A stretch of DNA of 64,000 bases from assembly GCA_951406725.2 (NCBI GenBank), contig OX597815.1, positions 46,500,001 through 46,564,000 of the forward strand. Reading direction: 5' to 3'. A model generated the notes under the pieces. It was not told the origin of the DNA and did not search any database. It saw nothing but the letters and a program-made list of their open reading frames with translations. The position numbers and the translations under genes were made by a program. The stretch comes from Octopus vulgaris (lineage: Eukaryota). This document shows, in pieces, positions 2,700 through 61,720 of this stretch (positions are counted from its first letter, which is position 1; every line of letters begins with the position of its first letter).

Positions 2700-3136
2700 A
2701 TTCAATTTTACAAGTTGGCATTTTTTTTTGCCGACGAGGGGCTGCGTCTGCGCAGTAGATTTTGAAAAAATTAGGATGTATAAACAAGAGGCACATAGTT
2801 GATTGCCTCGTGTTTTTTATATTTAATCTAAGGTGTACCTGTTGACGAAGATTTCACATACGAATATTATTTATTTGCTAAATTAAAATCAGAAACCAAT
2901 TGTCCAGGAAACTAGATGGTAAAAGTTTTCATTTTTTTATTTCGTTCCTGTCGGGAGTTTATCCCTAATTTTGTGGTTATTGAACCTAGCTGTTCTTTCT
3001 AGAGAGGATTCCTTATGTGTTTAAATGTACACTGTATTTTTTTTATGAGTAATACATAGTCTTTGGACTAAATTTTTACACGCCAGGCCACTGGAAGTGA
3101 AAATTTCTATTAATTTCCATTTCCTTTCGATATGAT

Positions 3137-5183: not shown

Positions 5184-5231
5184 AGCTATTTCGGCGAAAT
5201 AATCACTCGGTTTCGTAAAAAATAGAAAATT

Positions 5232-5987
5232 ATGCAGACTGCTATGATTTCACGCGACCCTATAACACCGTTTTGCGGCGACACCGACGTGGTCGCTTGG
5301 TTGAGGAGGGTAAAATTGGTGGCGAAGCTACACGGCATAGCTGACCTGGCGAGTTTTATGCCGTTGTATTTGGATGGCCCGGCGTTGGCGCTATATCTGG
5401 AGATGGGGGAAGACGGACCAGCTCAGCGCAGAAAAGTGGAGATCCGACTTATGGACGCTTTTGCGGAAGGAATGTTTGAAGCGTACGCTCGACTGGGTAG
5501 AATGAGGTGGACAGGACAACAGGTGGACGTGTTCGCCGGTGAGCTTAGAAGGTTGGCTAAACTTGCGGGATATGAGGGAGAGTCGCTAGAACGCACGGTT
5601 AGGTTAGCGTTCGTGACCGGCTTTCCCGACATTATGTCGGTCGAGCTACAGAAGCTCCCGAACGTGCGTTCGATGCCGATGGCCGAGATCATATCGCGGG
5701 CACGTGTACTGGTGTCGTGCAGCAGGTTGACGTCGGTAGCAGCGACTGTAACGTCGAAAAGTGGACCAGCTAGGAGCAACGGAGAGGGGCTGGGGAAAGA
5801 ACGCGTGCGATCGTTCAAGGGACAGTGTTTCCGGTGCCAGGGCCCACACATGGTCCGTGACTGCGCGTCGCCCAAGCCTGAGGTGATTTGCTACCGGTGT
5901 AGGGAGCCGGGGCATGTGGCCAGCGAGTGTCTGCGGGGAAACGGACCGCGGGAGACTACTGCGCCGGTAGTTGTCCCTTTGGATTAG
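5232..5987 (+). CDS. gag: Gag with two CCHC zinc knuckles
   Basis: CFRCQGPHMVRDC and CYRCREPGHVASEC motifs at the C-terminus. Confidence 0.92.
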   Translation: MQTAMISRDPITPFCGDTDVVAWLRRVKLVAKLHGIADLASFMPLYLDGPALALYLEMGEDGPAQRRKVEIRLMDAFAEGMFEAYARLGRMRWTGQQVDVFAGELRRLAKLAGYEGESLERTVRLAFVTGFPDIMSVELQKLPNVRSMPMAEIISRARVLVSCSRLTSVAATVTSKSGPARSNGEGLGKERVRSFKGQCFRCQGPHMVRDCASPKPEVICYRCREPGHVASECLRGNGPRETTAPVVVPLD

Positions 5988-6475
5988 TAGCGGCGCGTTT
6001 CTCATCGTTACCTGTGGTCGACATTCTGGTGAAGGGGAAGATGTCGCGAGCCCTGGTGGACACGGGCTGTACGACGACCCTGATGACCACAGAAGTGGCA
6101 GAGACGTGGAGTGGAGGAAGCAGTGTTAGGGCAGTCGACGGAAGAGAAGTGCACTGCGAAGGGGTTACGGATGCGCAGATTGTGGTGCAGGGACTGCAGC
6201 TGGCGTTGCGAGCGATTGTGGTCGGTCACTTGGTGGACGAGATCGACGTGGTGATGGGGATGGATGCGATCACCCGTTTGGGAGGTGTCACCGTCAACGA
6301 GGCTGGCGTAACGTTTGGGCTAGCAGGGAAGCCGTGTAGGGCGAGACCACGCACCGACGACAACCGTGAGGAAAAGGATGCGGCGCACACCATTGAAGAC
6401 CAGGATTTTCGGGCTGTCTTTGATGGCGAGAGGTGGACAGTGGAGTGGCACTGGAAGGAGAGCCCCCGATGTTAA
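5927..6475 (+). CDS. pol: Pol part 1: retropepsin aspartic protease
   Basis: ALVDTGC catalytic motif and VVMGMD motif; same frame as the ORF at 6542. Confidence 0.9.
   Translation: MSAGKRTAGDYCAGSCPFGLVAARFSSLPVVDILVKGKMSRALVDTGCTTTLMTTEVAETWSGGSSVRAVDGREVHCEGVTDAQIVVQGLQLALRAIVVGHLVDEIDVVMGMDAITRLGGVTVNEAGVTFGLAGKPCRARPRTDDNREEKDAAHTIEDQDFRAVFDGERWTVEWHWKESPRC
5936..5997 (+). promoter_or_regulatory. -1 programmed ribosomal frameshift signal (G GGA AAC plus H-type pseudoknot)
   Basis: The heptamer is in the gag frame at 5936-5942, followed by a 7-nt spacer. Stem GGGAGACTAC/GTAGTTGTCCC; loop TGCGCCG is complementary to CGGCGCG (5991-5997). The protease ORF is in the -1 frame. Confidence 0.8.
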
Positions 6476-6541
6476 AGAACAAAGTGGGCTGCTATCAGGC
6501 ATACTCTAAAAGGAGATGCCAGAAGTGAGTTCGAGGGGGAG

Positions 6542-8847
6542 GTGGAGCGGTGGATTAAGGAGGGCATACTGATCCCCTGGGAGAAAGAAGAGAGTGGAGT
6601 CCTGCCACTGATGGCGGTGATACAGCCCACAAAGCGTAAGGTCAGGCCAGTGCTCGACTTCCGAGAGCTGAATGACCACGTGTCGTGTCATACAGGCGGC
6701 GAGGCCACGGATGTCTGTGGAGACACCTTGCGAGAGTGGAGGCAGACGGCAGGGGCCTCCACGATTGTCGATTTAAAGTCGGCATACCTTCAGGTGCATG
6801 TGGCTGAGAAACTATGGAGGTACCCGCTCGTCAGGTATAGGGGCCGGACGTACTGTCTGACCAGGTTGGGATTCGGGCTGAATTCAGCGCCGAAGATTAT
6901 GGCAACAATTCTCAAGGCCATCCTGGGGAAGGTGGACAGAGTAAAAAGGGCCACCAATTCATACATCGACGACATTCTGGTGGATGAAACCGTGATACCA
7001 GCAACGGAGGTCATAGGCCACCTGAAGAGTTTTGGACTGATCGCCAAGCCGCCAGAGGCTATGGAGGGAGGTGCTGCACTGGGCCTCAAGCTATGGAGAG
7101 ACAAAGCCGGCGCCTTGGTGTTCCGGCGAGGGAATGAGATCCCTGAACTGGGCGCCAGCATGAGTAGACGGGAACTGTTCTCTGTGTGTGGGAAACTGGT
7201 GGGACACTACCCGATTGCAGGCTGGCTCCGGACAGCATGCAGCTTCATCAAGAGACGAGCCGAAGGAGTGAAGTGGAATGATAAAGTGGGGGAGAGGACG
7301 ATCGACATGATGCAGGAAGTCCTGGTCAGAGTAGGAGCAGAGGACCCGGTGAGGGGCAGCTGGTATGTTCCCAAATCAAAGAGCGGGATCGTATGGTGTG
7401 ACGCCAGTAGCATTGCAATAGGGGTCGTCTTGGAAGTGGGAGGTGTCACGGTGGAAGATGCAGCCTGGCTCAGGAAGATGGATGACTGCAGTCACATCAA
7501 CGTGGCAGAGTTGGAAGCCGTGCTGAAGGGGGTGAACCTAGCCTTGAAATGGGGGTTGCACACCATAGAAATCAGGACTGATTCAGCCACTGTACTTGGT
7601 TGGGCGACGGCAGTCATCACCGATGAGCGGAGGGTGCGGACCAAAGGGGCTGCAGAGATGCTGGTAAAGCGTCGATTAGGAATACTGCGTGAACTAACCA
7701 CTGAGTTCAATCTGAAGCTGAGCGTGATCTTTGTGCCTTCCGAGAAGAACAGGGCAGACGTCCTGACCAGGGTAAAGCGAGCCTGGTTGCAAGTGCCAGA
7801 GGATGCGAAGCAGGATGTAGCTGCAGTATGCCATCTGAGCGACTCGGAGTTGCGGAGACTGCACACCATGCATCACATGGGTGTGGACAGGACGTTGTTC
7901 CTAGCCAGAAAAGTCGACTCCGACGTAACAAGACAGAGCGTGCGGAGAGTGGTTAGCAGTTGTGACAGGTGCCAGTCCATCGACCCTGCTCCGGTCGTGC
8001 ATGAAGCGGGAAGTATTCCAGTGGACCAGGACTGGAGACGACTGGCGGTGGACATAACACACTACCGGCAGGGGACATACCTCTCAATGGTTGACTGCGG
8101 ACCGGGGCGGTTCGCCATATGGAGGGAGATGAGATCGGGAACCGCAGAAGAAATTGCGAAAGTGTTGAACGAGATATTCCTGGAACGAGGCCCCGTGGAT
8201 GAACTGCTTCTGGACAACGGCACTGCATTTCGCTCGGAGGCGCTGAGAGAAATGCTTGATGAGTGGAAGGTCAACCGCTTCTTCAGGGCGGCATACCGGC
8301 CAAGTATAAACGGGGTGGTGGAAAGGCATCATCGTACCATCAAGGCCATGGCAGAGAGGGTCACATTTCACCAGTCGAGGCCGTGTTTTGGTACAACATG
8401 TCGCCCAGATCAGGATAGGCTGAGGAGTCGGTGCCACACAGGGCAATATTCAGGTACGAGTGGAGGCATCCGTGTACTACATCAATACGACACGGGGCAG
8501 AGGAAGAGCACGCCTTCGTGCAGGTCGGGGAGGAAGTCTGGATAAAACCCCCAAACGCACGGTGTACATCGCAATGGGGAAAGGGGACAATAACCTCCGT
8601 AAATTCGAAGAATAACATCTCGATCGATGGTATGCCACGCCACGTTTTGGACATACGGAGGATTGTCCATGCCCCAGAGGATGGGACAAGCAACAGTGGG
8701 CAAGACGAAAACAACCGACAGGATGACGAGGTCGACAGCAACACACCAGAAACAAGTCCTAGGGTCGCGCTGCGACCACAGAGGGAGCGGCACCCTCCTC
8801 CCTGGTTGGCTGATTATGAAACCAGTTTCAGGTGCGGGAGCGAGTGA
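6542..8847 (+). pseudogene. pol: Pol part 2: RT, RNase H and integrase, disrupted near the end
   Basis: RT motifs VDLKSAY, LGFGLNSAP, YIDD; RNase H motifs CDAS, AELEA, TDS; integrase motifs HHMG..CDRC, VDIT, LDNG, VER. There is a frameshift near 8360 and an in-frame TAG at 8416-8418. Confidence 0.92.
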
Positions 8848-28044: not shown

Positions 28045-28047
<3 letters not shown>

Positions 28048-28855
28048 TTATACGATATAGTGCATATTTATACACATAAGGAATCCACTTAGTGTGAGAT
28101 TCAGCACATTAGAGAGAACATCTAGGTTCTATATCCGTTATTTTTGTGGTTTATAGAACCTAGATGTTCTCTCTAATGTGCTGAATCTCACACTAAGTGG
28201 ATTCCTTATATGTATAAATATGCACTATATCGTATAACTAATATATAGTCTTCTTGACTAATTTTTTTTGCACGTTAGACCACAGGAAATGTAAATTTTG
28301 ATTGAATATTTTTAATTTAATTAAATTCCATTTCCCTTTGATATGATTAAACATTATAAATTTTTGGATAAATTTCGGTTAAAGTTGGCGGTTTTTTATT
28401 GTAGCCAACGATAGGACTGCGATTGCGCAGAAAATTTGAAAAGTTAGTTCGTATAAACACGAGACAAGTAGCGGTGCTTGTCTTCTGTCTCTTATACGTT
28501 TAACCCTAGGTTGGACCTCGCCGAAGAAGATCAGACCTTGCGAGCTCCCCGACTTGCTAAAAGAAGATCAGAAACCAATTTGGTCCGGGGTACTAGATGG
28601 TAAATGTTTTTCATTTCCAAATTTATTCCTGTCGAATTTTATCCGTTATTTTTGTGGTTTATAGAACCTAGATGTTCTCTCTAATGTGCTGAATCTCACA
28701 CTAAGTGGATTCCTTATGTGTATAAATATGCACTATATCGTACAACTAATATATAGTCTTCTTGACTAATTTTTTTTGCACGTTAGACCACTGGAAATGT
28801 AAATTTTGATTGAATATTTTAAATTTAATTAAATTCCATTTCCCTTTGATATGAT
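28045..28855 (+). mobile_element. ORF-less PLE/retrozyme-like insertion: inverted 5' piece plus partial tandem of a ~510-bp HHR unit
   Basis: 28045-28131 is the reverse complement of 28152-28239; 28133-28346 is repeated at 28641-28855; (TA)n on both sides. Confidence 0.8.
28515..28591 (+). ncRNA. Type I hammerhead ribozyme motif (U4C core variant)
   Basis: ACCTCG-CCGAAGA-aGATC...GATCa-GAAA-CCAATTTGG-TC^CGGGGT; the GUC site ends at 28585. Confidence 0.65.
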
Positions 28856-28860
28856 ATATA

Positions 28861-29039: not shown

Positions 29040-29100
<61 letters not shown>

Positions 29101-29104
<4 letters not shown>

Positions 29105-29833
29105 AATGAGGGTGAAAAATTAGATATTAATTTAATAATACCATCAGTTTAACAACAAGGAGGCAATACAGATTTATACGTAAATATAAGAGAGTTACCG
29201 TTAAATGGTTAACTCTAGTGCTAGAAATAGCTCCTTATTCTGGTATAGCCACCGAAGTTGTTTCCACAAAAGAAATAACATTACCTTCAACGTAAGGAAA
29301 GTGAAATACAATGAAAAGATAGATTAATGCTGAACAATTGTTTCTTTATCAATATAATATGCAATTATACTCATATATTTATCTATATGTCATCAGCAGC
29401 ATTTGTCTTCGATACAATTTATTAGACCCTCACGGGCGATAAATACCCATGCAGTCCAATCGATTGCATACATAGTTGTGATTTAGCTTCCCCGCTAAAA
29501 GCATGGTAAGACTTAGTGGAAACGAATACTGCATATAATATTTACTGCAGTATATTAAATTTATAAATTCATAAATGAGGGTGAAAAGTTAGATATTAAT
29601 TTAATAATACCATCAGTTTAACACCAAGTGGCCTAGCTCATAAAAACCAGGGAGACAATACAAATTTATACGTAAATATAAGAGAGTTACCGTTAAGTGG
29701 TTAACTCTGGTGCTAGAAATAGCTCCTTATTCTGGCATAGCCACCGAAGTTGTTTCCACAAAAGAAATAACATTACCTTCAACGTAAGGAAAGTGAAATA
29801 CAACGAAAAGATAGATTAATGCTGAACAATTGT
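29101..29833 (-). mobile_element. ORF-less partial-tandem element (~490-nt unit) with a hammerhead ribozyme
   Basis: 29101-29340 is repeated at 29570-29832; (TA)n flanks; HHR at the repeat boundary. Confidence 0.8.
29326..29403 (-). ncRNA. Type I hammerhead ribozyme with canonical core
   Basis: Minus strand: AATGCTG-CTGATGA-(45-nt AT-rich stem II region)-GAAA-CAATTG-TT^CAGCATT. Perfect 7-bp stem I and palindromic stem III; the base of stem II pairs weakly. Confidence 0.72.
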
Positions 29834-30087
29834 ATATATATATATAATCCCCCAACACCAAAATGAAAAAAAAAAACGGAGGTAAAAGAAGAAAAAACAA
29901 CGCGAGGAAGTGTTACATATAATTTGTTAAAAGGCCAAATGAACCGATAACATCACAAAGTTTCATCTGCATCAATGAATAGTTACAGCAGTGGAAACAC
30001 GTGTAGGTCATTGCAATATGCTGTATATAACAATTAAGTAAATTTTGTGGATGCACAAGTCTCCATATTCATTGTATATATTTATCA

Positions 30088-30309
30088 TGAAGTATATTTG
30101 CCATCTAAATGTGACTAATCATTAAGGGTTAATGCTATTGTAGCTTGTATCCCCAGGAAGAAACATCTCCTCCAGCTGGCTATTGAGACACTTTCTGTAC
30201 CCTATCAGTATTTGCAATACTGATAGGGCACAGTATATTCCTGGGGCTGCAAGCTACAGTAGCATCAACCCTTAAGGGTTAGCCACATTTAGGTGGTAAA
30301 TATACTTCA
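30088..30309. repeat. Fold-back element with diverged ~70-bp outer arms and an inner hairpin
   Basis: TGAAGTATATTT...CCCCAGG / CCTGGGG...AAATATACTTCA; inner CCCTATCAGTATT-tgc-AATACTGATAGGG. Confidence 0.85.
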
Positions 30310-30381
30310 CGATGTTTATACCTCGCTAAGAGATTTATTATATATATGAATTTATGTATGGATGGATGCGTATACGTATGC

Positions 30382-36729: not shown

Positions 36730-38270
36730 TTTACTCTAGAAAGGTACAGTGATAGGTGTATCATTTCCAACGAAGTATTGTTCATTTTGACAAGACAGCA
36801 AGCCACCCAGTGAACTTAGGCGATCTTTCTGGTCAGGGTCATACAGTATCATGCGATTGGTCTAGTCAAGGTTGTTCCCTCTCGTTTTTTTCTGTATGTA
36901 CTGACTCTTGGGCCACTACAGCGAAAACTAGAGACTTTGAGGAACTTTTCACGTGAACTAGGATGCGAAAAACCCGTGATGACAAACACAAATGACATCA
37001 CCATCATAACATCGGACATGAGGCACATAGAGGTGACCGGCACATTGATGATTGCTTGTAATTGTGAAAACGCTGTTGTCATGCCGTTTCGAAGAAAAAA
37101 ATGTTCTTCCTTTTCTTCAAATTTGTAGTCATAAGACCCACGATTTTCCTTTTTCAGTGATTTGTTATCCTTCAGGAGACACCACCTGGATGTTCTGTTT
37201 GAACGTACTGTACCGGTGATTCTGATTCTTAAGGATTTCATTTGTACAAGTAGGTTATAACTTGAGAAAAAGTTATCAGAATAAGTTTCATGATCATTGG
37301 GATTATCTGGGCGATTGGTCATTGATAAAACCACTTTCAAATCGAGACTGTCATTGTTCTTGGTATTGGAAGTAGGATTTTTTTGCTTACCTTTATATAA
37401 ATCCATTCTAAAATAACAGCCACTAGTGGTACAACAAAGCATCCACTGCTTGAAATTATTGGCTTACCTCTTATAAGATGTTTTAGAGAGCTTCTTCCAT
37501 AGTATATTACTATCTGTTCATCTACTGACAGTCTCTTAGAGAATATTCCAACTGCTTGAACTTCTGATTTAGAGCATCAGCTAGCGGTCTAACTTTGAAT
37601 CCTTTATCATCTTTGTAGTTTTCTGCATTTTCATTGTCAATAAAATTAAGAAACCTTTTGATGCTTATAAATCAGTTTCTTGGCATTGTCTTTCGAAAAA
37701 TCAGAGTTTCAAAGTCGTCAGACATACTCCAATAATGCCGTTCACTTGGTAGTTTGTGTTATCCTAAAAAAAAAAAAAAGTAAGATTCCAATGAAATTTC
37801 TCAGTTTGTTGACAAACTAAAATCAAGTACATTTTTTCTGAGTGGAATAAGTGACAGATTCTCTGCAAATTTCACTTAGTAACTCCTCGTCAAGGAAAAG
37901 TTCAAAAATCTCAACTGGGCTCTTGCCAAGTACTTTATCTTTCATTGATTTCATTCTATCATCTGATCCATCAGTATTTGGTGATACAATTTTTGAAAAT
38001 TAGGCTCAGTCTTTTCCCAAGAGAAATCTGAGTTCTTTTTTTTTCCTTTTGGTTGTGTTAGTTCGTCTTCGTTATCACTTCCTGGCACATCCTGTTCGGA
38101 TCTCTGTTCTCATCATCTAAAATCTCATCATCAAAGTCGTCTTCATTTACTAGTGAAGGAATGTCAACATTATCAATAACGTTTTCATCACTGGGTGACT
38201 CATTTTCTTCTGCATAATTTACTGCATCAAGAACTGAATAGAATGACTTCACTGAACGGTAGTAAGCCAT
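36730..38270 (-). pseudogene. Decayed piggyBac (PGBD3-like) transposase
   Basis: Fragments LPSERHYWS, VDEQIVIYYGR, DLYKGK, SDNFFSSYNLL, TGTVRSNR and WHDNSV; acidic N-terminus; multiple frameshifts. Confidence 0.85.
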
Positions 38271-43935: not shown

Positions 43936-44360
43936 TGTAGTAAGGCGGCGAGCTGGCTGAAATGTTAGCACGCCGAGCGAAGTGCTTAGCGGTATTTCGT
44001 TTGCCGTTACGTTCTGAGTTCAAATTCCGCCGAGGTCGACTTTGCCTTTCATCCTTTCGGTGTCGATAAATTAAATAACAGTTACGCACTGGGGTCGATG
44101 TAATCGACTTAATCCGTTTGTCTGTCCTTGTTGTTTCCCCTCTATGTTTAGCCCCTTGTGGGTAATAAAGAAATAGGTATTTCGGCTGCCGTTACGTTCT
44201 GAGTTCAAATTCCGCCAAGGTCGACTTTGCCTTTCATCCTTTCGGGGTCGATAAATTAAGTAACAGTTACGCACTGGGGTCGATGTAATCGACTTAATCC
44301 GTTTGTCTATCCTTGTGTGTCCCCTCTGTGTGTAGCCCCTTGTTAGCAGTAAAGAAATAT
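43936..44360 (+). mobile_element. SINE family B with internal tandem duplication and a 12-bp TSD
   Basis: GATGGTACTTCT at 43924-43935 and 44361-44372; the body is repeated from about 44176. Confidence 0.9.
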
Positions 44361-58109: not shown

Positions 58110-58609
58110 TGTGAAACGGTGAATTTATATCTCTATCACTACAAAAATAGTTTGATATGCGCCACATTTGACTTAAGCTTTCTCTATTTGCACTGATCAT
58201 TGTATTGCAGCTAAACTAGCTTTATAATGGATTCTGATTTAGGAACAAGGGAGGCAATTTTTATTGGCGGGTGTTAGTCGATAATATCGACGCCAGTACT
58301 CGACTGATTCTTCCCTTTTTCGCCTTCGGAAGGATGAAAGGCAACACTGATCTCCATGGCATTTCAATTCAGATCGTAAAGAGCCGGAATACTTGCTACT
58401 ACAGGGCATTACGGGCTAGATTTGATGATTTTTATAATTCACGTTTCCCATTTTCAGAAACAGCTTGATGTATTAGTGGACAGTCAACGGCGTTGGAAAG
58501 AATAAAAATTAAAGCTATAGTTCACAAAAGTTTGCTGACATGGAGGACTAGAAGCCATCTTGTATCATGAAGTTTCCCAGCTGCGTTTCATAATGCTGAC
58601 ACCATGAAT

Positions 58610-61600
58610 ACTCACTGAGAGAGAGAATTCGCCGGAGGAACCTAATATCCGAACTGAAGATGAGAAAACAGATGGGAGAGAAGGGTTTACGCATCCAAGA
58701 TGGACAAATAATCAAGTCCTACCTCTGGTCGCATGCTGTAGTGCTGACAGGGAAAGTGAATTGAGGGCGAATCGAAGTAAAGTAGATACCCTCGTCAACG
58801 ATGCCATCTCTGATACCCCTTATTCTGCTTGTTCCCCAACTCCCGCCCCTCAAACTTCACAGCTCAGCATCGTCTATACCAACTCGTGCTCCTTATTTCC
58901 AAAGTTCAGCGAACTATTTACACTGGCCATGCGTGATTTCCCTGATGTGATAGCTATCACCGAGACTTGGCTGACTCCAGCAGTAAAGGACTCAGAAATC
59001 CACCTACAGGGCTACGCCCTCTTCAGATGTGACAGAGAAAAAAGGCGAGGTGGAGGTGTTGCTGTGTATGTTAAATCTGATCTCAAACCGTCCAGCGGTA
59101 TTCTACCCACTAATGCTGAACCTACAACAAAATTCGATGCCGTCTATTGCAAGCTGAGCCTATCCGGGTTTTGCCTGCCCGTGTTAGCTGTCTACAGGCC
59201 GCCTCTTGCCGACCCCCAGGTCGATGCTCATTTACTCGAAGCGATAAGATACGTTTCAGCTTCTCATGACTGTTTGATATTAGGAGACTTCAACGCTCCC
59301 ACGATCGATTGGCCCGCATCAATGTGTACATCATCTTCCCGGTTCGGCCAGGCCCTTCTTGACATGGCTGAAGATTGTTTTCTATCGCAACATGTTGAAT
59401 ATCCGACAAGGCATCGGTCTGGGCAACAGCCATCTATGCTGGATCTGGTATTCTCCCGCTATCCAAGATCAGTGTCAGACGTATCTGTGTGCGCCAAGAG
59501 TGATCATGCGGTCCTGAAGTTCGTCATGCACACAACTTTTTCTATGTCCACGACTACTTCGCTGCCACGTAGAGTCTTCTCTGCAATTAATCTTGAAATT
59601 CTAACCGAGGCTTCCGCGCTTCTGGACTGGCGATCCCTGATGACGTTGTCCTCAGTTGACGAACTATGGTCATCCCTCAAAGCATATGTAATCTGGTTGA
59701 CTGACCAGGCAGTTCCCGTTGGGTTTCCCAAGAAGAAGAAACACAAGCCCTGGGTGACGAAGAAGGTTAAACGAGAACTTCGACTCAGAGATATTGCTTG
59801 GGCTGAATTCAAAAATCTGGATTCGACTGCAGCTTTTGAGGTGTACAAAACTCAACGAGACCGAGCCGTGAAAATTGAAAAGGAAGAACGCTTCAGATAT
59901 GGATACAAAATCGCGGCAAACGCCAGTAGCAATCCAAAAACCTTCTTTGCCCATGTTCAACGGAATTCCCGCTTGAACAACCAAATTGCAACGTTGGTAG
60001 ACTCAAAAGGCGTATCGATTGAGGGCCCTTATCAACAGAGTCAGTTATTTGCTGAAGCTTTTTCAACTATTTTCAAACAAGATGATGGTCGTGAACCCCC
60101 CCCCCCCACCATTTGATAGATCGGTACCTCCAATGCTTCGATTGGTCATCACGCGGGACGAAGTCGAACGCGTTATTCAAGGCCTCGATGTCAACAAGGG
60201 TCACGGCCCTGACGGCATACACCCACGGGCTATCAAAGCGTTGGCTCCGGTCATCTGCGAGCCCTTAACACGTCTATTCAATATGTCATTGGCGACGGGT
60301 GTTATACCTGCGGACTGGAGAACAGCGATAATCTGCCCAATTTTCAAGAAAGGGGGCCGCGAAGACCCGCTTAACTACCGACCGGTTTCCCTTACATCAA
60401 TAATCAGCAAGATGTTCGAAACCATCCTTAAGAAAAGTATCATGCTCCACCTCCAAAACACAGCCTCTATCTCTGATTCCCAACACGGGTTCGTGCCGAA
60501 GAGATCATGCTTGACCAACTTACTGGTAATGCAAGATTTGGTGATGCGCATCCTCGATGATAGTGATGCTGTTGACATCGTTTTATTGGACTTTGCCAAA
60601 GCTTTTGACTCGGTAAACCACCGTCTATTACTTGTCAAGCTTCAAGCATATAGTTTCCATCCGGATATTGTACGATGGGTTGGTGCCTTCCTCTCAGATC
60701 GCTCCTTCCAAGTCCAAGTTAATGGTTCGCGGTCCAACATCTCCAGTGCGAGCAGTGGCGTGCCTCAAGGTTCAGTGCTTGTTCTTAGTCTTCATAAATG
60801 ACTTGCCCGACGACCTCACGCAACACACCCTTCTATTTGCCGACGACGTCAAACTGGTCGCTCCTCGCGGTGATATAGAGGATTTTCGTCGATGCCTCCA
60901 CCAAATTTGGAGATGGTCTATCGAATGGGATCTGTGTCTGAACGTGTCAAAGTGCTGTCATCTGCCTGTTGGCTCTCCTCCTGCAACTCAACTTGATTTC
61001 GAGCCGGGTCGTCTGCTGCTGGAGAGGACCGATCAGGTAAAGGACCTGGGTATCTTGGTGGATTCCTCCTTTTCGCCTTCGGCCCAGTGCGTCCATGCTG
61101 CCAACAAAGCACGCGGAATTCTGTTCTTGATTCGACGGTCATTCGGAATGCTCACAGCAGCCATATTCCTACCGCTCTATGTCACGCTGGTGAGACCCAT
61201 ATTGGAGTACGAGATTCAAGCCTCTTCTCCTTATCTCCTCAAAGACATACAACATCTCGAAAGAGTCCAGAAGCTGGCTACCCGCATGGTTCTTGGTCTC
61301 AAGAATTTGTCTTATGAAGAAAGGCTGAAGACGCTCGACCTTTATTCTCTAGAAAAACGACGACGCCGTGGAGATCTCATTCTTGTTCACAACATCATAA
61401 GCGGAAAGTGTAACCTCTCGAAAGAGCTGTTCTTCACTCCTGCTCCAGAGCGTCGGCTGCGGGGTCATTCCGAAAAGCTCTATCTGCGACGATTTCATCT
61501 CAATCGAAGAAGAGGGGCTTTCTCCGTCCGGGTTGCGGATCCGTGGAATAAGCTGCCAGACGAGATGGTGAAGATGCCGACGACCGCTCGGTTCAAAGTC

Positions 61601-61720
61601 TCCCTTGACCTCAAGTGGCTTGAACTCTTTACATGAACACCACCCTGTACATAACTCCATGTCCCCCTACATGGCCTTGCTTTTTGCTTTTTGAGCCAAA
61701 AAATTAATTAACTAACTAAC
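58610..61720 (+). mobile_element. CR1-group LINE, 5'-truncated within ORF1
   Basis: ORF1 C-terminus (ERIRRRNLISELKMRKQMGEKGLRIQDGQII, stop at 58764), APE plus RT ORF2, short 3' UTR and (TAAC)3 tail at 61709-61720. Confidence 0.92.
58761..61636 (+). pseudogene. LINE ORF2 (AP endonuclease plus reverse transcriptase) with two frameshifts
   Basis: ITETWL, GGGVAVYV, LGDFN, SDH; NYRPVSLTS, QHGF, DFAKAFD, GVPQGSVL, FADD, DLGI. Breaks at the poly-C near 60100 and near 60778. Confidence 0.93.

What the first reader, a model, noticed from the sequence alone, without database searches (positions are those of the whole stretch)
29101..29833. Best retrozyme candidate: canonical HHR, 492-nt site-to-site unit, insertion starting about 8 nt from a cleavage site
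On the minus strand the element begins at CAATTGTT^CAGCATT (the 3' remnant of a first HHR, 29832). It runs 492 nt to a full HHR (29403-29326; CTGATGA, GAAA, 7-bp stem I, palindromic ACAATTGT stem III), repeats another ~230 nt and ends in (TA)n. The palindromic stem III could allow dimeric folding between tandem ribozymes. It appears unrelated to the neighbouring 28-kb family except for the GAAAC(C)AATT stem III.
Basis: partly seen in the sequence, partly recalled or inferred. Interest (0 to 1): 0.78.

Follow-up and report, generated by a model that had tools for sequence, protein, structure and literature searches.

The report
Penelope-parasite repeat carrying a hammerhead
This is one copy of a 492-base non-coding repeat with a hammerhead-ribozyme motif, found at dozens of checked places in TA microsatellites, where it was likely inserted by Penelope-like retrotransposon enzymes; this copy's start near the predicted cut site is likely chance and its ribozyme is predicted to misfold.

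Summary
The anatomy is real: minus strand, 3' remnant of a hammerhead (HHR) at 29833, predicted cut sites 492 nt apart, one complete type I HHR (29403-29326), 232 nt more, then (TA)n. It is one copy of a dispersed family (1,666 search candidates). In 63 loci (96 segments), 90 segments end at one of two fixed 3' sites about 100 nt apart, 5' ends are scattered, 32 loci carry a head-to-head inverted piece, and 26 of 28 classifiable pairs join one end of each type: the insertion signature of Penelope-like elements (PLEs). Starts at the cut site are not a family trait: 0 of 30 copies begin there and 73 of 96 segments run through it. The HHR is not canonical (45-nt stem II, no G10.1-C11.1 pair, GUU), and this copy's stem II is among the most damaged (predicted pairing about 0). 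The neighbouring 28-kb family is a distant collinear relative, not unrelated. Intact Hydra-type PLEs in the genome share long-stem-II HHRs, two far-apart ends and TA targets, but none matched the unit's DNA. Verdict: a non-autonomous PLE derivative ('non-LTR retrozyme'), a new member of a known kind.

The parts
29101..29833 (-). Whole insertion: about 1.5 units of a 491-492-nt non-coding repeat, 5'-truncated, ending at the family's 3' end B
29834..29846 (-). (TA)n at the 5' flank (target microsatellite; no target-site duplication can be read)
29818..29833 (-). 3' remnant of first HHR: stem III palindrome, predicted cut between 29825 and 29824, 3' strand of stem I; no catalytic core
29333..29824 (-). 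One full unit, cut site to cut site (492 nt, 33% GC)
29671..29686 (-). Sequence at which 42 of 96 family segments end (3' end A, about +146 to +156 after the cut site); internal in this copy
29628..29635 (-). Core of a motif shared by several related families (pattern with 4,301 genome matches, some double-counted, against 1 in the control); removed from the second unit by the 23-nt deletion
29570..29581 (-). Internal copy of 3' end B (+254 to +257)
29437..29466 (-). CCAAT-like and TATA-like words upstream of the HHR: possible internal promoter (inference from sequence only, untested)
   Evidence: positions only
29326..29403 (-). Complete type I HHR motif: stem I 29403-29397/29332-29326, CUGAUGA 29396-29390, 45-nt stem II 29389-29345 (three mispairs in this copy), GAAAC-AAUU-GUU 29344-29333, predicted cut 29333/29332
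29101..29112 (-). 3' end B of the insertion, where 48 of 96 family segments end
29042..29104 (.). (TA)31 at the 3' flank
28046..28856 (+). Neighbouring related family (508-nt unit): inverted piece 28046-28133 ending at its end A, direct part 28132-28856 ending at its end B, HHR at 28515-28591 with a 43-nt stem II

Best explanation
The element is a non-coding, 5'-truncated copy of a dispersed 491-492-nt hammerhead-bearing repeat that is likely mobilised in trans by Penelope-like (probably Hydra-clade) reverse transcriptase/endonuclease, which would nick (TA)n DNA and start copying at either of two internal RNA sites about 100 nt apart. Shown: two fixed 3' ends, scattered 5' ends, A+B inverted pairs, TA flanks, copies that run through the cut site, and halves of one insertion closer to each other than to other loci. 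Inferred: priming on both target strands (one at site A, one at site B) gives the head-to-head pairs; copying continues past the unit boundary on an uncut or re-closed unit-length RNA (circle about 50%, tandem read-through or template re-use about 50%) and stops at random, here 8-9 nt beyond the second cut site passed. The family HHR probably cleaves only as a dimer; this copy's HHR is predicted to be impaired. The partner clade (Hydra, about 60%) rests on shared architecture, not sequence.
For: Family: 1,666, 867 and 843 first-look candidates. In 63 unique loci, 96 segments: 3' end A 42, B 48, other 6; TA run at 87 of the 90 A/B ends; 32 of 63 loci inverted; 26 of 28 pairs with both ends classified are A+B, 2 are A+A, 0 are B+B (binomial p=3e-6). 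5' ends: Rayleigh p about 0.25; 1 of 96 (this copy) within 10 nt of the cut, about 4 expected. 73 of 96 segments cross the cut site, 11 twice. Tandem halves differ by 3.2% against 6.6% to other loci (25 of 28 pairs lower), inverted arms 3.4% against 6.7% (30 of 32); 155 differences in 4,757 sites, none recurring in the same polarity more than twice. A related family has a 5+2-unit insertion with units 0-3 nt apart and A+B ends. PLE hallmarks in print: PMC8557442 section 6; two internal RT start sites, HHR cleavage dispensable in vitro: PMC11167929; retrozymes as PLE derivatives: 10.64898/2026.07.22.740005. Autonomous elements with RW, DKT, C-terminal CxxC/CxH motifs and intact 700-1,000-codon frames carry HHRs with 47-60-nt stem II and two 3' ends in TA; three of them (L262, L265, L269) have the same GAAAC-AAUU-GU stem III. 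Published Hydra-clade HHRs often have GUU triplets and U.U beside the core (supplement S2).
Against: No autonomous element sharing DNA with the unit was found: BLAST of the unit against PLE loci gave no attached match; profile HMMs of 3' ends gave no cross-match either way; shuffle-tested alignments to 7 autonomous pLTRs gave z of 2.1 or less for this family. The 100-nt distance between ends exceeds the 30-40-bp tail in print. No segment of this family reaches two full units (longest 912 nt), which a free-running circle would be expected to give at times. 14 of 57 HHRs lack an intact core, including a CCGAUGA variant at 6 loci, and both HHRs of L004 carry C3G, so the ribozyme may be a passenger. 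One other copy (L326) also starts about 7 nt upstream of the cut. The loci are best-scoring hits, not a random sample. The Hydra label was read from motifs by eye; no tree was built and the CxCX5C linker was not seen.
Confidence: 0.8

Rival explanations
1. One reading: ribozyme cleavage defines the RNA ends, and this insertion began near the cut because a cleaved monomer or dimer was copied to its 5' end.
For: This copy starts 8-9 nt from the site and L326 about 7 nt from it; stem I covaries (4 of 7 pairs with two-sided changes); GAAACAAUUGUU is kept in 55 of 57 HHRs.
Against: A cut RNA would start at the C after GUU, but both copies include upstream bases; 0 of 30 copies start at the site and 26 run 120 nt or more beyond it; 73 of 96 segments cross it; 3' ends lie 150 and 255 nt inside the unit.
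Confidence: 0.06
2. Variant of the best explanation: same PLE machinery, but the ribozyme plays no part in copying; templates are uncut read-through transcripts of tandem master loci, or the RT re-uses one RNA.
For: Core-mutant subfamilies spread (CCGAUGA at 6 of 57 HHRs; CCGAAGA in the 28-kb family; C3G in both L004 halves); longest segment is under two units; HHR mutants still insert in vitro for an Anolis PLE (PMC11167929); 8 of 9 Xenopus dimers did not cleave.
Against: Halves of one insertion share non-consensus and private variants and show no recurring first-half/second-half differences, as expected of a unit-length template; the 5+2 near-identical multimer in a related family; stem I covariation implies selection on the fold.
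Confidence: 0.4
3. The copies are merely the truncated 3' ends (pLTRs) of an autonomous PLE not yet found.
For: Architecture matches autonomous pLTRs in this genome.
Against: End B runs directly into the next HHR within 170 nt in every copy long enough to show it; no ORF of 120 codons lies in the element; tblastn of PLE proteins against the family loci found only fragments at 3 loci, none joined to a unit.
Confidence: 0.05
4. DNA-level repeat (satellite or Helitron-like rolling-circle element) with an incidental hammerhead-like motif.
For: Partial tandem structure; a multimer in a related family.
Against: Fixed 3' ends with scattered 5' ends and 5' inversions are retroposition marks; strand-specific covarying HHR fold; copies dispersed on more than 20 contigs.
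Confidence: 0.03

Closest known systems
Animal non-LTR retrozymes (Cervera & de la Pena 2020, PMC7229834; Li, Clavereau & Pollet 2026, 10.64898/2026.07.22.740005)
   Same: Non-coding, low-GC repeat unit with one type I HHR, short palindromic stem III, dispersed partial tandems; proposed to be non-autonomous PLE derivatives.
   Different: Unit of 491-492 nt is above the 150-450 nt of the 2020 paper (inside the 51-972 nt of the 2026 preprint); mostly 0.2-1.9 units rather than dimers to multimers; this copy fails the preprint's 'active' definition (two complete HHRs); stem II is 45 nt; expression and cleavage untested.
EN+ Penelope-like element insertions with pLTR, inverted 5' copy and tail (Craig et al. 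2021, PMC8557442; Frangieh et al. 2024, PMC11167929)
   Same: 5' truncation, partial tandem, head-to-head inverted piece, two alternative 3' ends downstream of the HHR, AT-rich/(TA)n target.
   Different: No ORF; the two ends are about 100 nt apart instead of 30-40.
Hydra-clade PLEs (Craig et al. 2021; Hydra-1_Obim listed in its supplement S1)
   Same: (TA)n targets, HHRs often with GUU and without G10.1-C11.1; Hydra-type elements in this genome have long stem II and ends 70-155 nt apart.
   Different: No DNA similarity shown between the unit and any sampled Hydra-type pLTR; the published Hydra-1_oBim HHR has a short stem II.

Membership tests
Canonical metazoan type I HHR (PMC4209133) | Core CUGANGA ... 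GAAA ... NUH | tested here: met
   (intact in this copy; 43 of 57 family HHRs)
Canonical metazoan type I HHR (PMC4209133) | Helix I of about 6 bp closing the motif | tested here: met
   7 bp; 4 of 7 pairs with two-sided changes; 96% of cells paired. Cells are related sequences, not independent events.
Canonical metazoan type I HHR (PMC4209133) | Helix II of about 4 bp with G10.1-C11.1 and loop-loop contact | tested here: not met
   45-nt, 18-pair stem II; G-C at 10.1/11.1 in 0 of 57; predicted pairing 0.00 in this copy
Canonical metazoan type I HHR (PMC4209133) | Short helix III with palindromic loop allowing a dimer | tested here: met
   AACAAUUGUU self-duplex -8.2 kcal/mol; co-fold of two HHRs gives the double form
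Canonical metazoan type I HHR (PMC4209133) | Self-cleavage at the NUH site | not testable with these tools
   needs in vitro assay
Non-LTR retrozyme | Non-coding repeat unit, GC below 50%, one type I HHR per unit | tested here: met
Non-LTR retrozyme | [quoted passage not shown] | tested here: not met
   This copy: one complete HHR plus a remnant. Family: two complete HHRs in tandem in L002, L004, L009; 11 of 96 segments cross the site twice
Non-LTR retrozyme | Expressed as unit-length linear and circular RNA | not testable with these tools
   only assembled contigs of runs not on record as RNA were offered
PLE-type insertion | Variable 5' truncation with fixed 3' end(s) | tested here: met
PLE-type insertion | Partial tandem and adjacent inverted 5'-truncated copy | tested here: met
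   32 of 63 loci inverted; 28 tandem overlaps of 60 nt or more
PLE-type insertion | Tail present at one end only (two RT start sites) | tested here: met
   26 of 28 pairs are A+B
PLE-type insertion | Tail length 30-40 bp | tested here: not met
   about 100 nt here and in the 28-kb family; about 155 nt in one autonomous group
Autonomous PLE | RT plus GIY-YIG ORF | tested here: not met
Derivative of a Hydra-clade PLE | Sequence similarity to the pLTR of an autonomous Hydra element | tested here: inconclusive
   none found among sampled families; sampling capped at the best hits of each search
Hydra clade (for the candidate partner elements) | RWK-type and DKT motifs, C-terminal GIY-YIG without CCHH, CxxC and CxH motifs, CxCX5C linker, phylogenetic placement | tested here: inconclusive
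   RIRW, DKT, CxxC and CxHW read by eye against section 11 of PMC8557442; linker not seen; no tree built

The most novel reading that the evidence does not exclude
This genome holds a superfamily of thousands of 490-510-nt retrozymes that are circularised by long-stem-II, dimer-dependent hammerheads and inserted by Hydra-clade PLE enzymes through paired priming at two internal sites about 100 nt apart. The A+B rule would be direct genomic evidence for which machinery moves animal retrozymes, and intact partner ORFs in the same genome would make the cycle reconstitutable in vitro.
Probability: 0.3. Interest if true: 0.6.

Novelty: new member of a known kind. Interest (0 to 1): 0.3.

Why it matters
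The single locus is ordinary and probably a weak ribozyme. The family data are more useful: both retrozyme papers read here leave the mobilising enzyme and mechanism open, and the 2026 preprint covers no mollusc by its own listing of sampled classes. The strict pairing of two 3' ends, the 100-nt tail and the co-occurring intact Hydra-type ORFs give a concrete system to test whether PLE enzymes copy unit-length (circular) retrozyme RNA and whether the hammerhead is needed.

Tried and rejected
Rfam: no hammerhead at gathering score or E<=10; the miRNA-like hits at 28071-28215 are the inverted junction of the 28-kb element. Free folding of 29420-29310 is no more stable than shuffles (z -0.04); RNAalifold on the 57 HHRs returned stem I but another inner fold. 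RNA evidence: no RNA holder listed; contigs of four runs only guessed to be RNA cover the stretch in pieces from many copies and show no ends; not used for or against. Partner search: GIY-YIG Pfam scan gave a 781-codon family with no match to the unit; five further protein searches and 71 fetched regions (17 more) gave no attached match; a 21-nt match of the 28-kb family to L262/L269 (z 3.7, 1 of 150 shuffles, best of 21 comparisons) lies in a different position relative to the HHR and was not accepted. A Naiad partner was considered because an octopus Naiad is flagged 'HHR_half_core'; three short motif look-ups in that supplement found none in it; a full comparison with the published Naiad and Hydra consensus sequences was not made. 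A 26-codon frame after the HHR was not searched (one search failed) and does not resemble the Hydra-type N-termini by eye. Circular folding of the unit gave mixed results (window unit -123, L002 unit -105, shuffles about -94+-6). Two HHR regions truncated within the motif (L006, L008) were dropped before the 57-row alignment, and copies whose core could not be matched were not collected.

Full report
Observation. On the minus strand the element starts at 29833/29832 inside a (TA)7 run with ACAATTGTT then CAGCATT, reaches a complete hammerhead motif at 29403-29326 and repeats 232 nt before (TA)31. The predicted cut sites are 492 nt apart. The two overlapping halves differ by about 4% and a 23-nt deletion. 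The strict motif has 1 match in the window and 0 in 200 shuffles. So the anatomy is as described.

The hammerhead. I aligned 57 HHR regions from 46 loci (two truncated ones dropped). Stem I is paired in 96% of cells with two-sided changes at 4 of 7 pairs; stem II is a long 18-pair hairpin in 45 nt with one two-sided change; stem III is 2 bp with an AAUU loop (these counts are on related copies, so they are support, not a probability). Position 10.1/11.1 is never G-C (U-A 25, C.A 23, U.U 5, A.A 4), 43 of 57 have an intact core, and 18 have an intact core plus the first two stem II pairs. The window copy has mispairs at both of those pairs and one further up; its predicted stem II pairing is 0.00 against 0.4-0.9 at the base in most copies. 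Two copies co-fold as a double hammerhead through the palindrome, as PMC4209133 describes for short-helix-III motifs, but this locus has one core only. Rfam finds no hammerhead. 'Canonical' and 'best candidate' are therefore not supported.

The family. The window lies on a 216-Mb contig of a 2.8-Gb genome, likely an octopus (my inference from size and repeat content, not from a call). Searches gave 1,666 and 867 candidates, of which 40 each were scored. From these I assembled 63 unique loci with 96 segments; they are the best-scoring hits, not a random sample. 3' ends: 42 at site A (about +150 after the cut), 48 at site B (about +255), 6 elsewhere; 87 of the 90 run into TA repeats. 32 loci have head-to-head inverted arms; 26 join A with B, 2 A with A, none B with B, 4 B with an unclassified end (p=3e-6). 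5' ends cover the whole unit (Rayleigh p about 0.25); only this copy starts within 10 nt of the cut. Because those searches could under-sample short copies starting at the cut, I searched again with +1 to +155 only: of the 30 loci returned (of 40 scored; two rows are this window), none starts at the cut, two start 7-9 nt upstream (this copy and L326), two at about 27-48 nt, and 26 extend 120 nt or more. 73 of 96 segments cross the cut site. The start near the cut is thus at chance level, though L326 leaves room for a minor hotspot in the AT-rich palindrome.

Template. Halves of one insertion are closer to each other than to other loci (tandem 3.2% versus 6.6%, inverted 3.4% versus 6.7%), with no recurring first-half/second-half differences. 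This fits one unit-length template copied more than once, either a circle or a re-used RNA, but also recently homogenised tandem masters. Against a ribozyme-made circle: no segment reaches two units (longest 912 nt), and core variants spread (CCGAUGA at 6 loci; C3G in both halves of L004). For it: a related family has a 5+2-unit insertion of nearly identical units with A and B ends.

Relatives. The 28-kb neighbour has 1,623 candidates, two 3' ends 100 nt apart, an inverted arm and a 43-nt stem II, and aligns collinearly with an intact copy of this family. Two more families share the 3' region; a motif common to several has 4,301 matches, some double-counted, against 1 control match.

Partner. 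The genome holds many intact C-terminal-endonuclease PLEs. Several groups show the RW, DKT, CxxC and CxH motifs given for the Hydra clade. In one group HHRs with 47-57-nt stem II end in TA at about +50-70 or +200-230; in another, stem II of 53-60 nt with ends near +35 and +155, three elements having this family's GAAAC-AAUU-GU; shorter-stem groups end near +26/+37 and +97/+108. Published Hydra HHRs often use GUU and lack G10.1-C11.1. But no sampled pLTR matches the unit in sequence, so the partner is inferred from architecture only.

Mechanism. Most likely a PLE RT/endonuclease binds the unit RNA, nicks (TA)n on both strands and primes internally at A and B, as shown in vitro for an Anolis PLE where two adjacent start sites make the tail and HHR cleavage is dispensable (PMC11167929). 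Copying runs back through the HHR into the preceding unit and stops at random; where both strands prime, arms meet head to head. The sequence patterns are shown; enzyme, template form and cleavage are inferred.

Known versus new. This is what PMC7229834 calls a non-LTR retrozyme and what 10.64898/2026.07.22.740005 argues is a non-autonomous PLE. Not found in print in my searches (open-licence library only): a description of these families, of 45-60-nt stem II HHRs in Hydra-type PLEs, or of tails of 70-155 nt. PMC8557442 notes 'half-core' motifs 35-50 nt apart in some Naiads, so long spacers are not wholly unreported.

What I read. 10.64898/2026.07.22.740005: parts 1-3 of 5 (abstract to discussion), supplements not seen. 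PMC8557442: passages, outline, sections 6, 11, 20, and parts of supplements S1, S2, S4, S5. PMC11167929: parts 1-2 of 4. PMC4209133: parts 1-2 of 4. PMC7229834: passages and discussion. Others: search listings only. HHR numbering and the view that GUU is a weak triplet are recalled. Earlier AI findings in other genomes describe similar PLE-type non-coding repeats; they are leads, not support.

Noticed in passing
G000, loci L142-L186, L251-L307: Many families of apparently intact Hydra-type PLEs (700-1,090-codon frames, some in 3.6-kb tandems), several with 47-60-nt stem II hammerheads and two 3' ends 70-155 nt apart, longer than the 30-40-bp tail in print.
   Followed up: partly
L247 (G000:C1:13046000-13049800): Related 505-nt HHR family inserted as five direct plus two inverted units, 0-3 differences between full units, A and B ends in TA: a better rolling-circle candidate than the finding.
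   Followed up: partly
window 28046-28856 and 2712-3106: The 28-kb family copy has the U4C core variant (CCGAAGA); a 69%-identical relative lies at 2712-3106.
   Followed up: partly
L091-L095, L069: A 781-codon RT/GIY-YIG family with an overlapping upstream frame; a possible U3/A8 minimal hammerhead near its 3' end was seen by eye.
   Followed up: no
window 5226-8545: Gag-, protease-, RT- and integrase-like frames of an LTR retrotransposon (label recalled from motifs, not searched).
   Followed up: no
window 58608-61636: Frameshifted APE-endonuclease/RT LINE-like element (label recalled from motifs).
   Followed up: no
window 36849-37463: Fragment resembling a piggyBac transposase (label recalled).
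   Followed up: no
window 30090-30335: About 245-nt element with long inverted ends and an internal palindrome next to a TA run, MITE-like or a PLE stump.
   Followed up: no
window 43991-44359: 185-bp unit repeated twice, 92% match.
   Followed up: no
L326 (G000:C2:207845859-207846013): A second family copy starting about 7 nt upstream of the cut site, directly after a TA run.
   Followed up: partly
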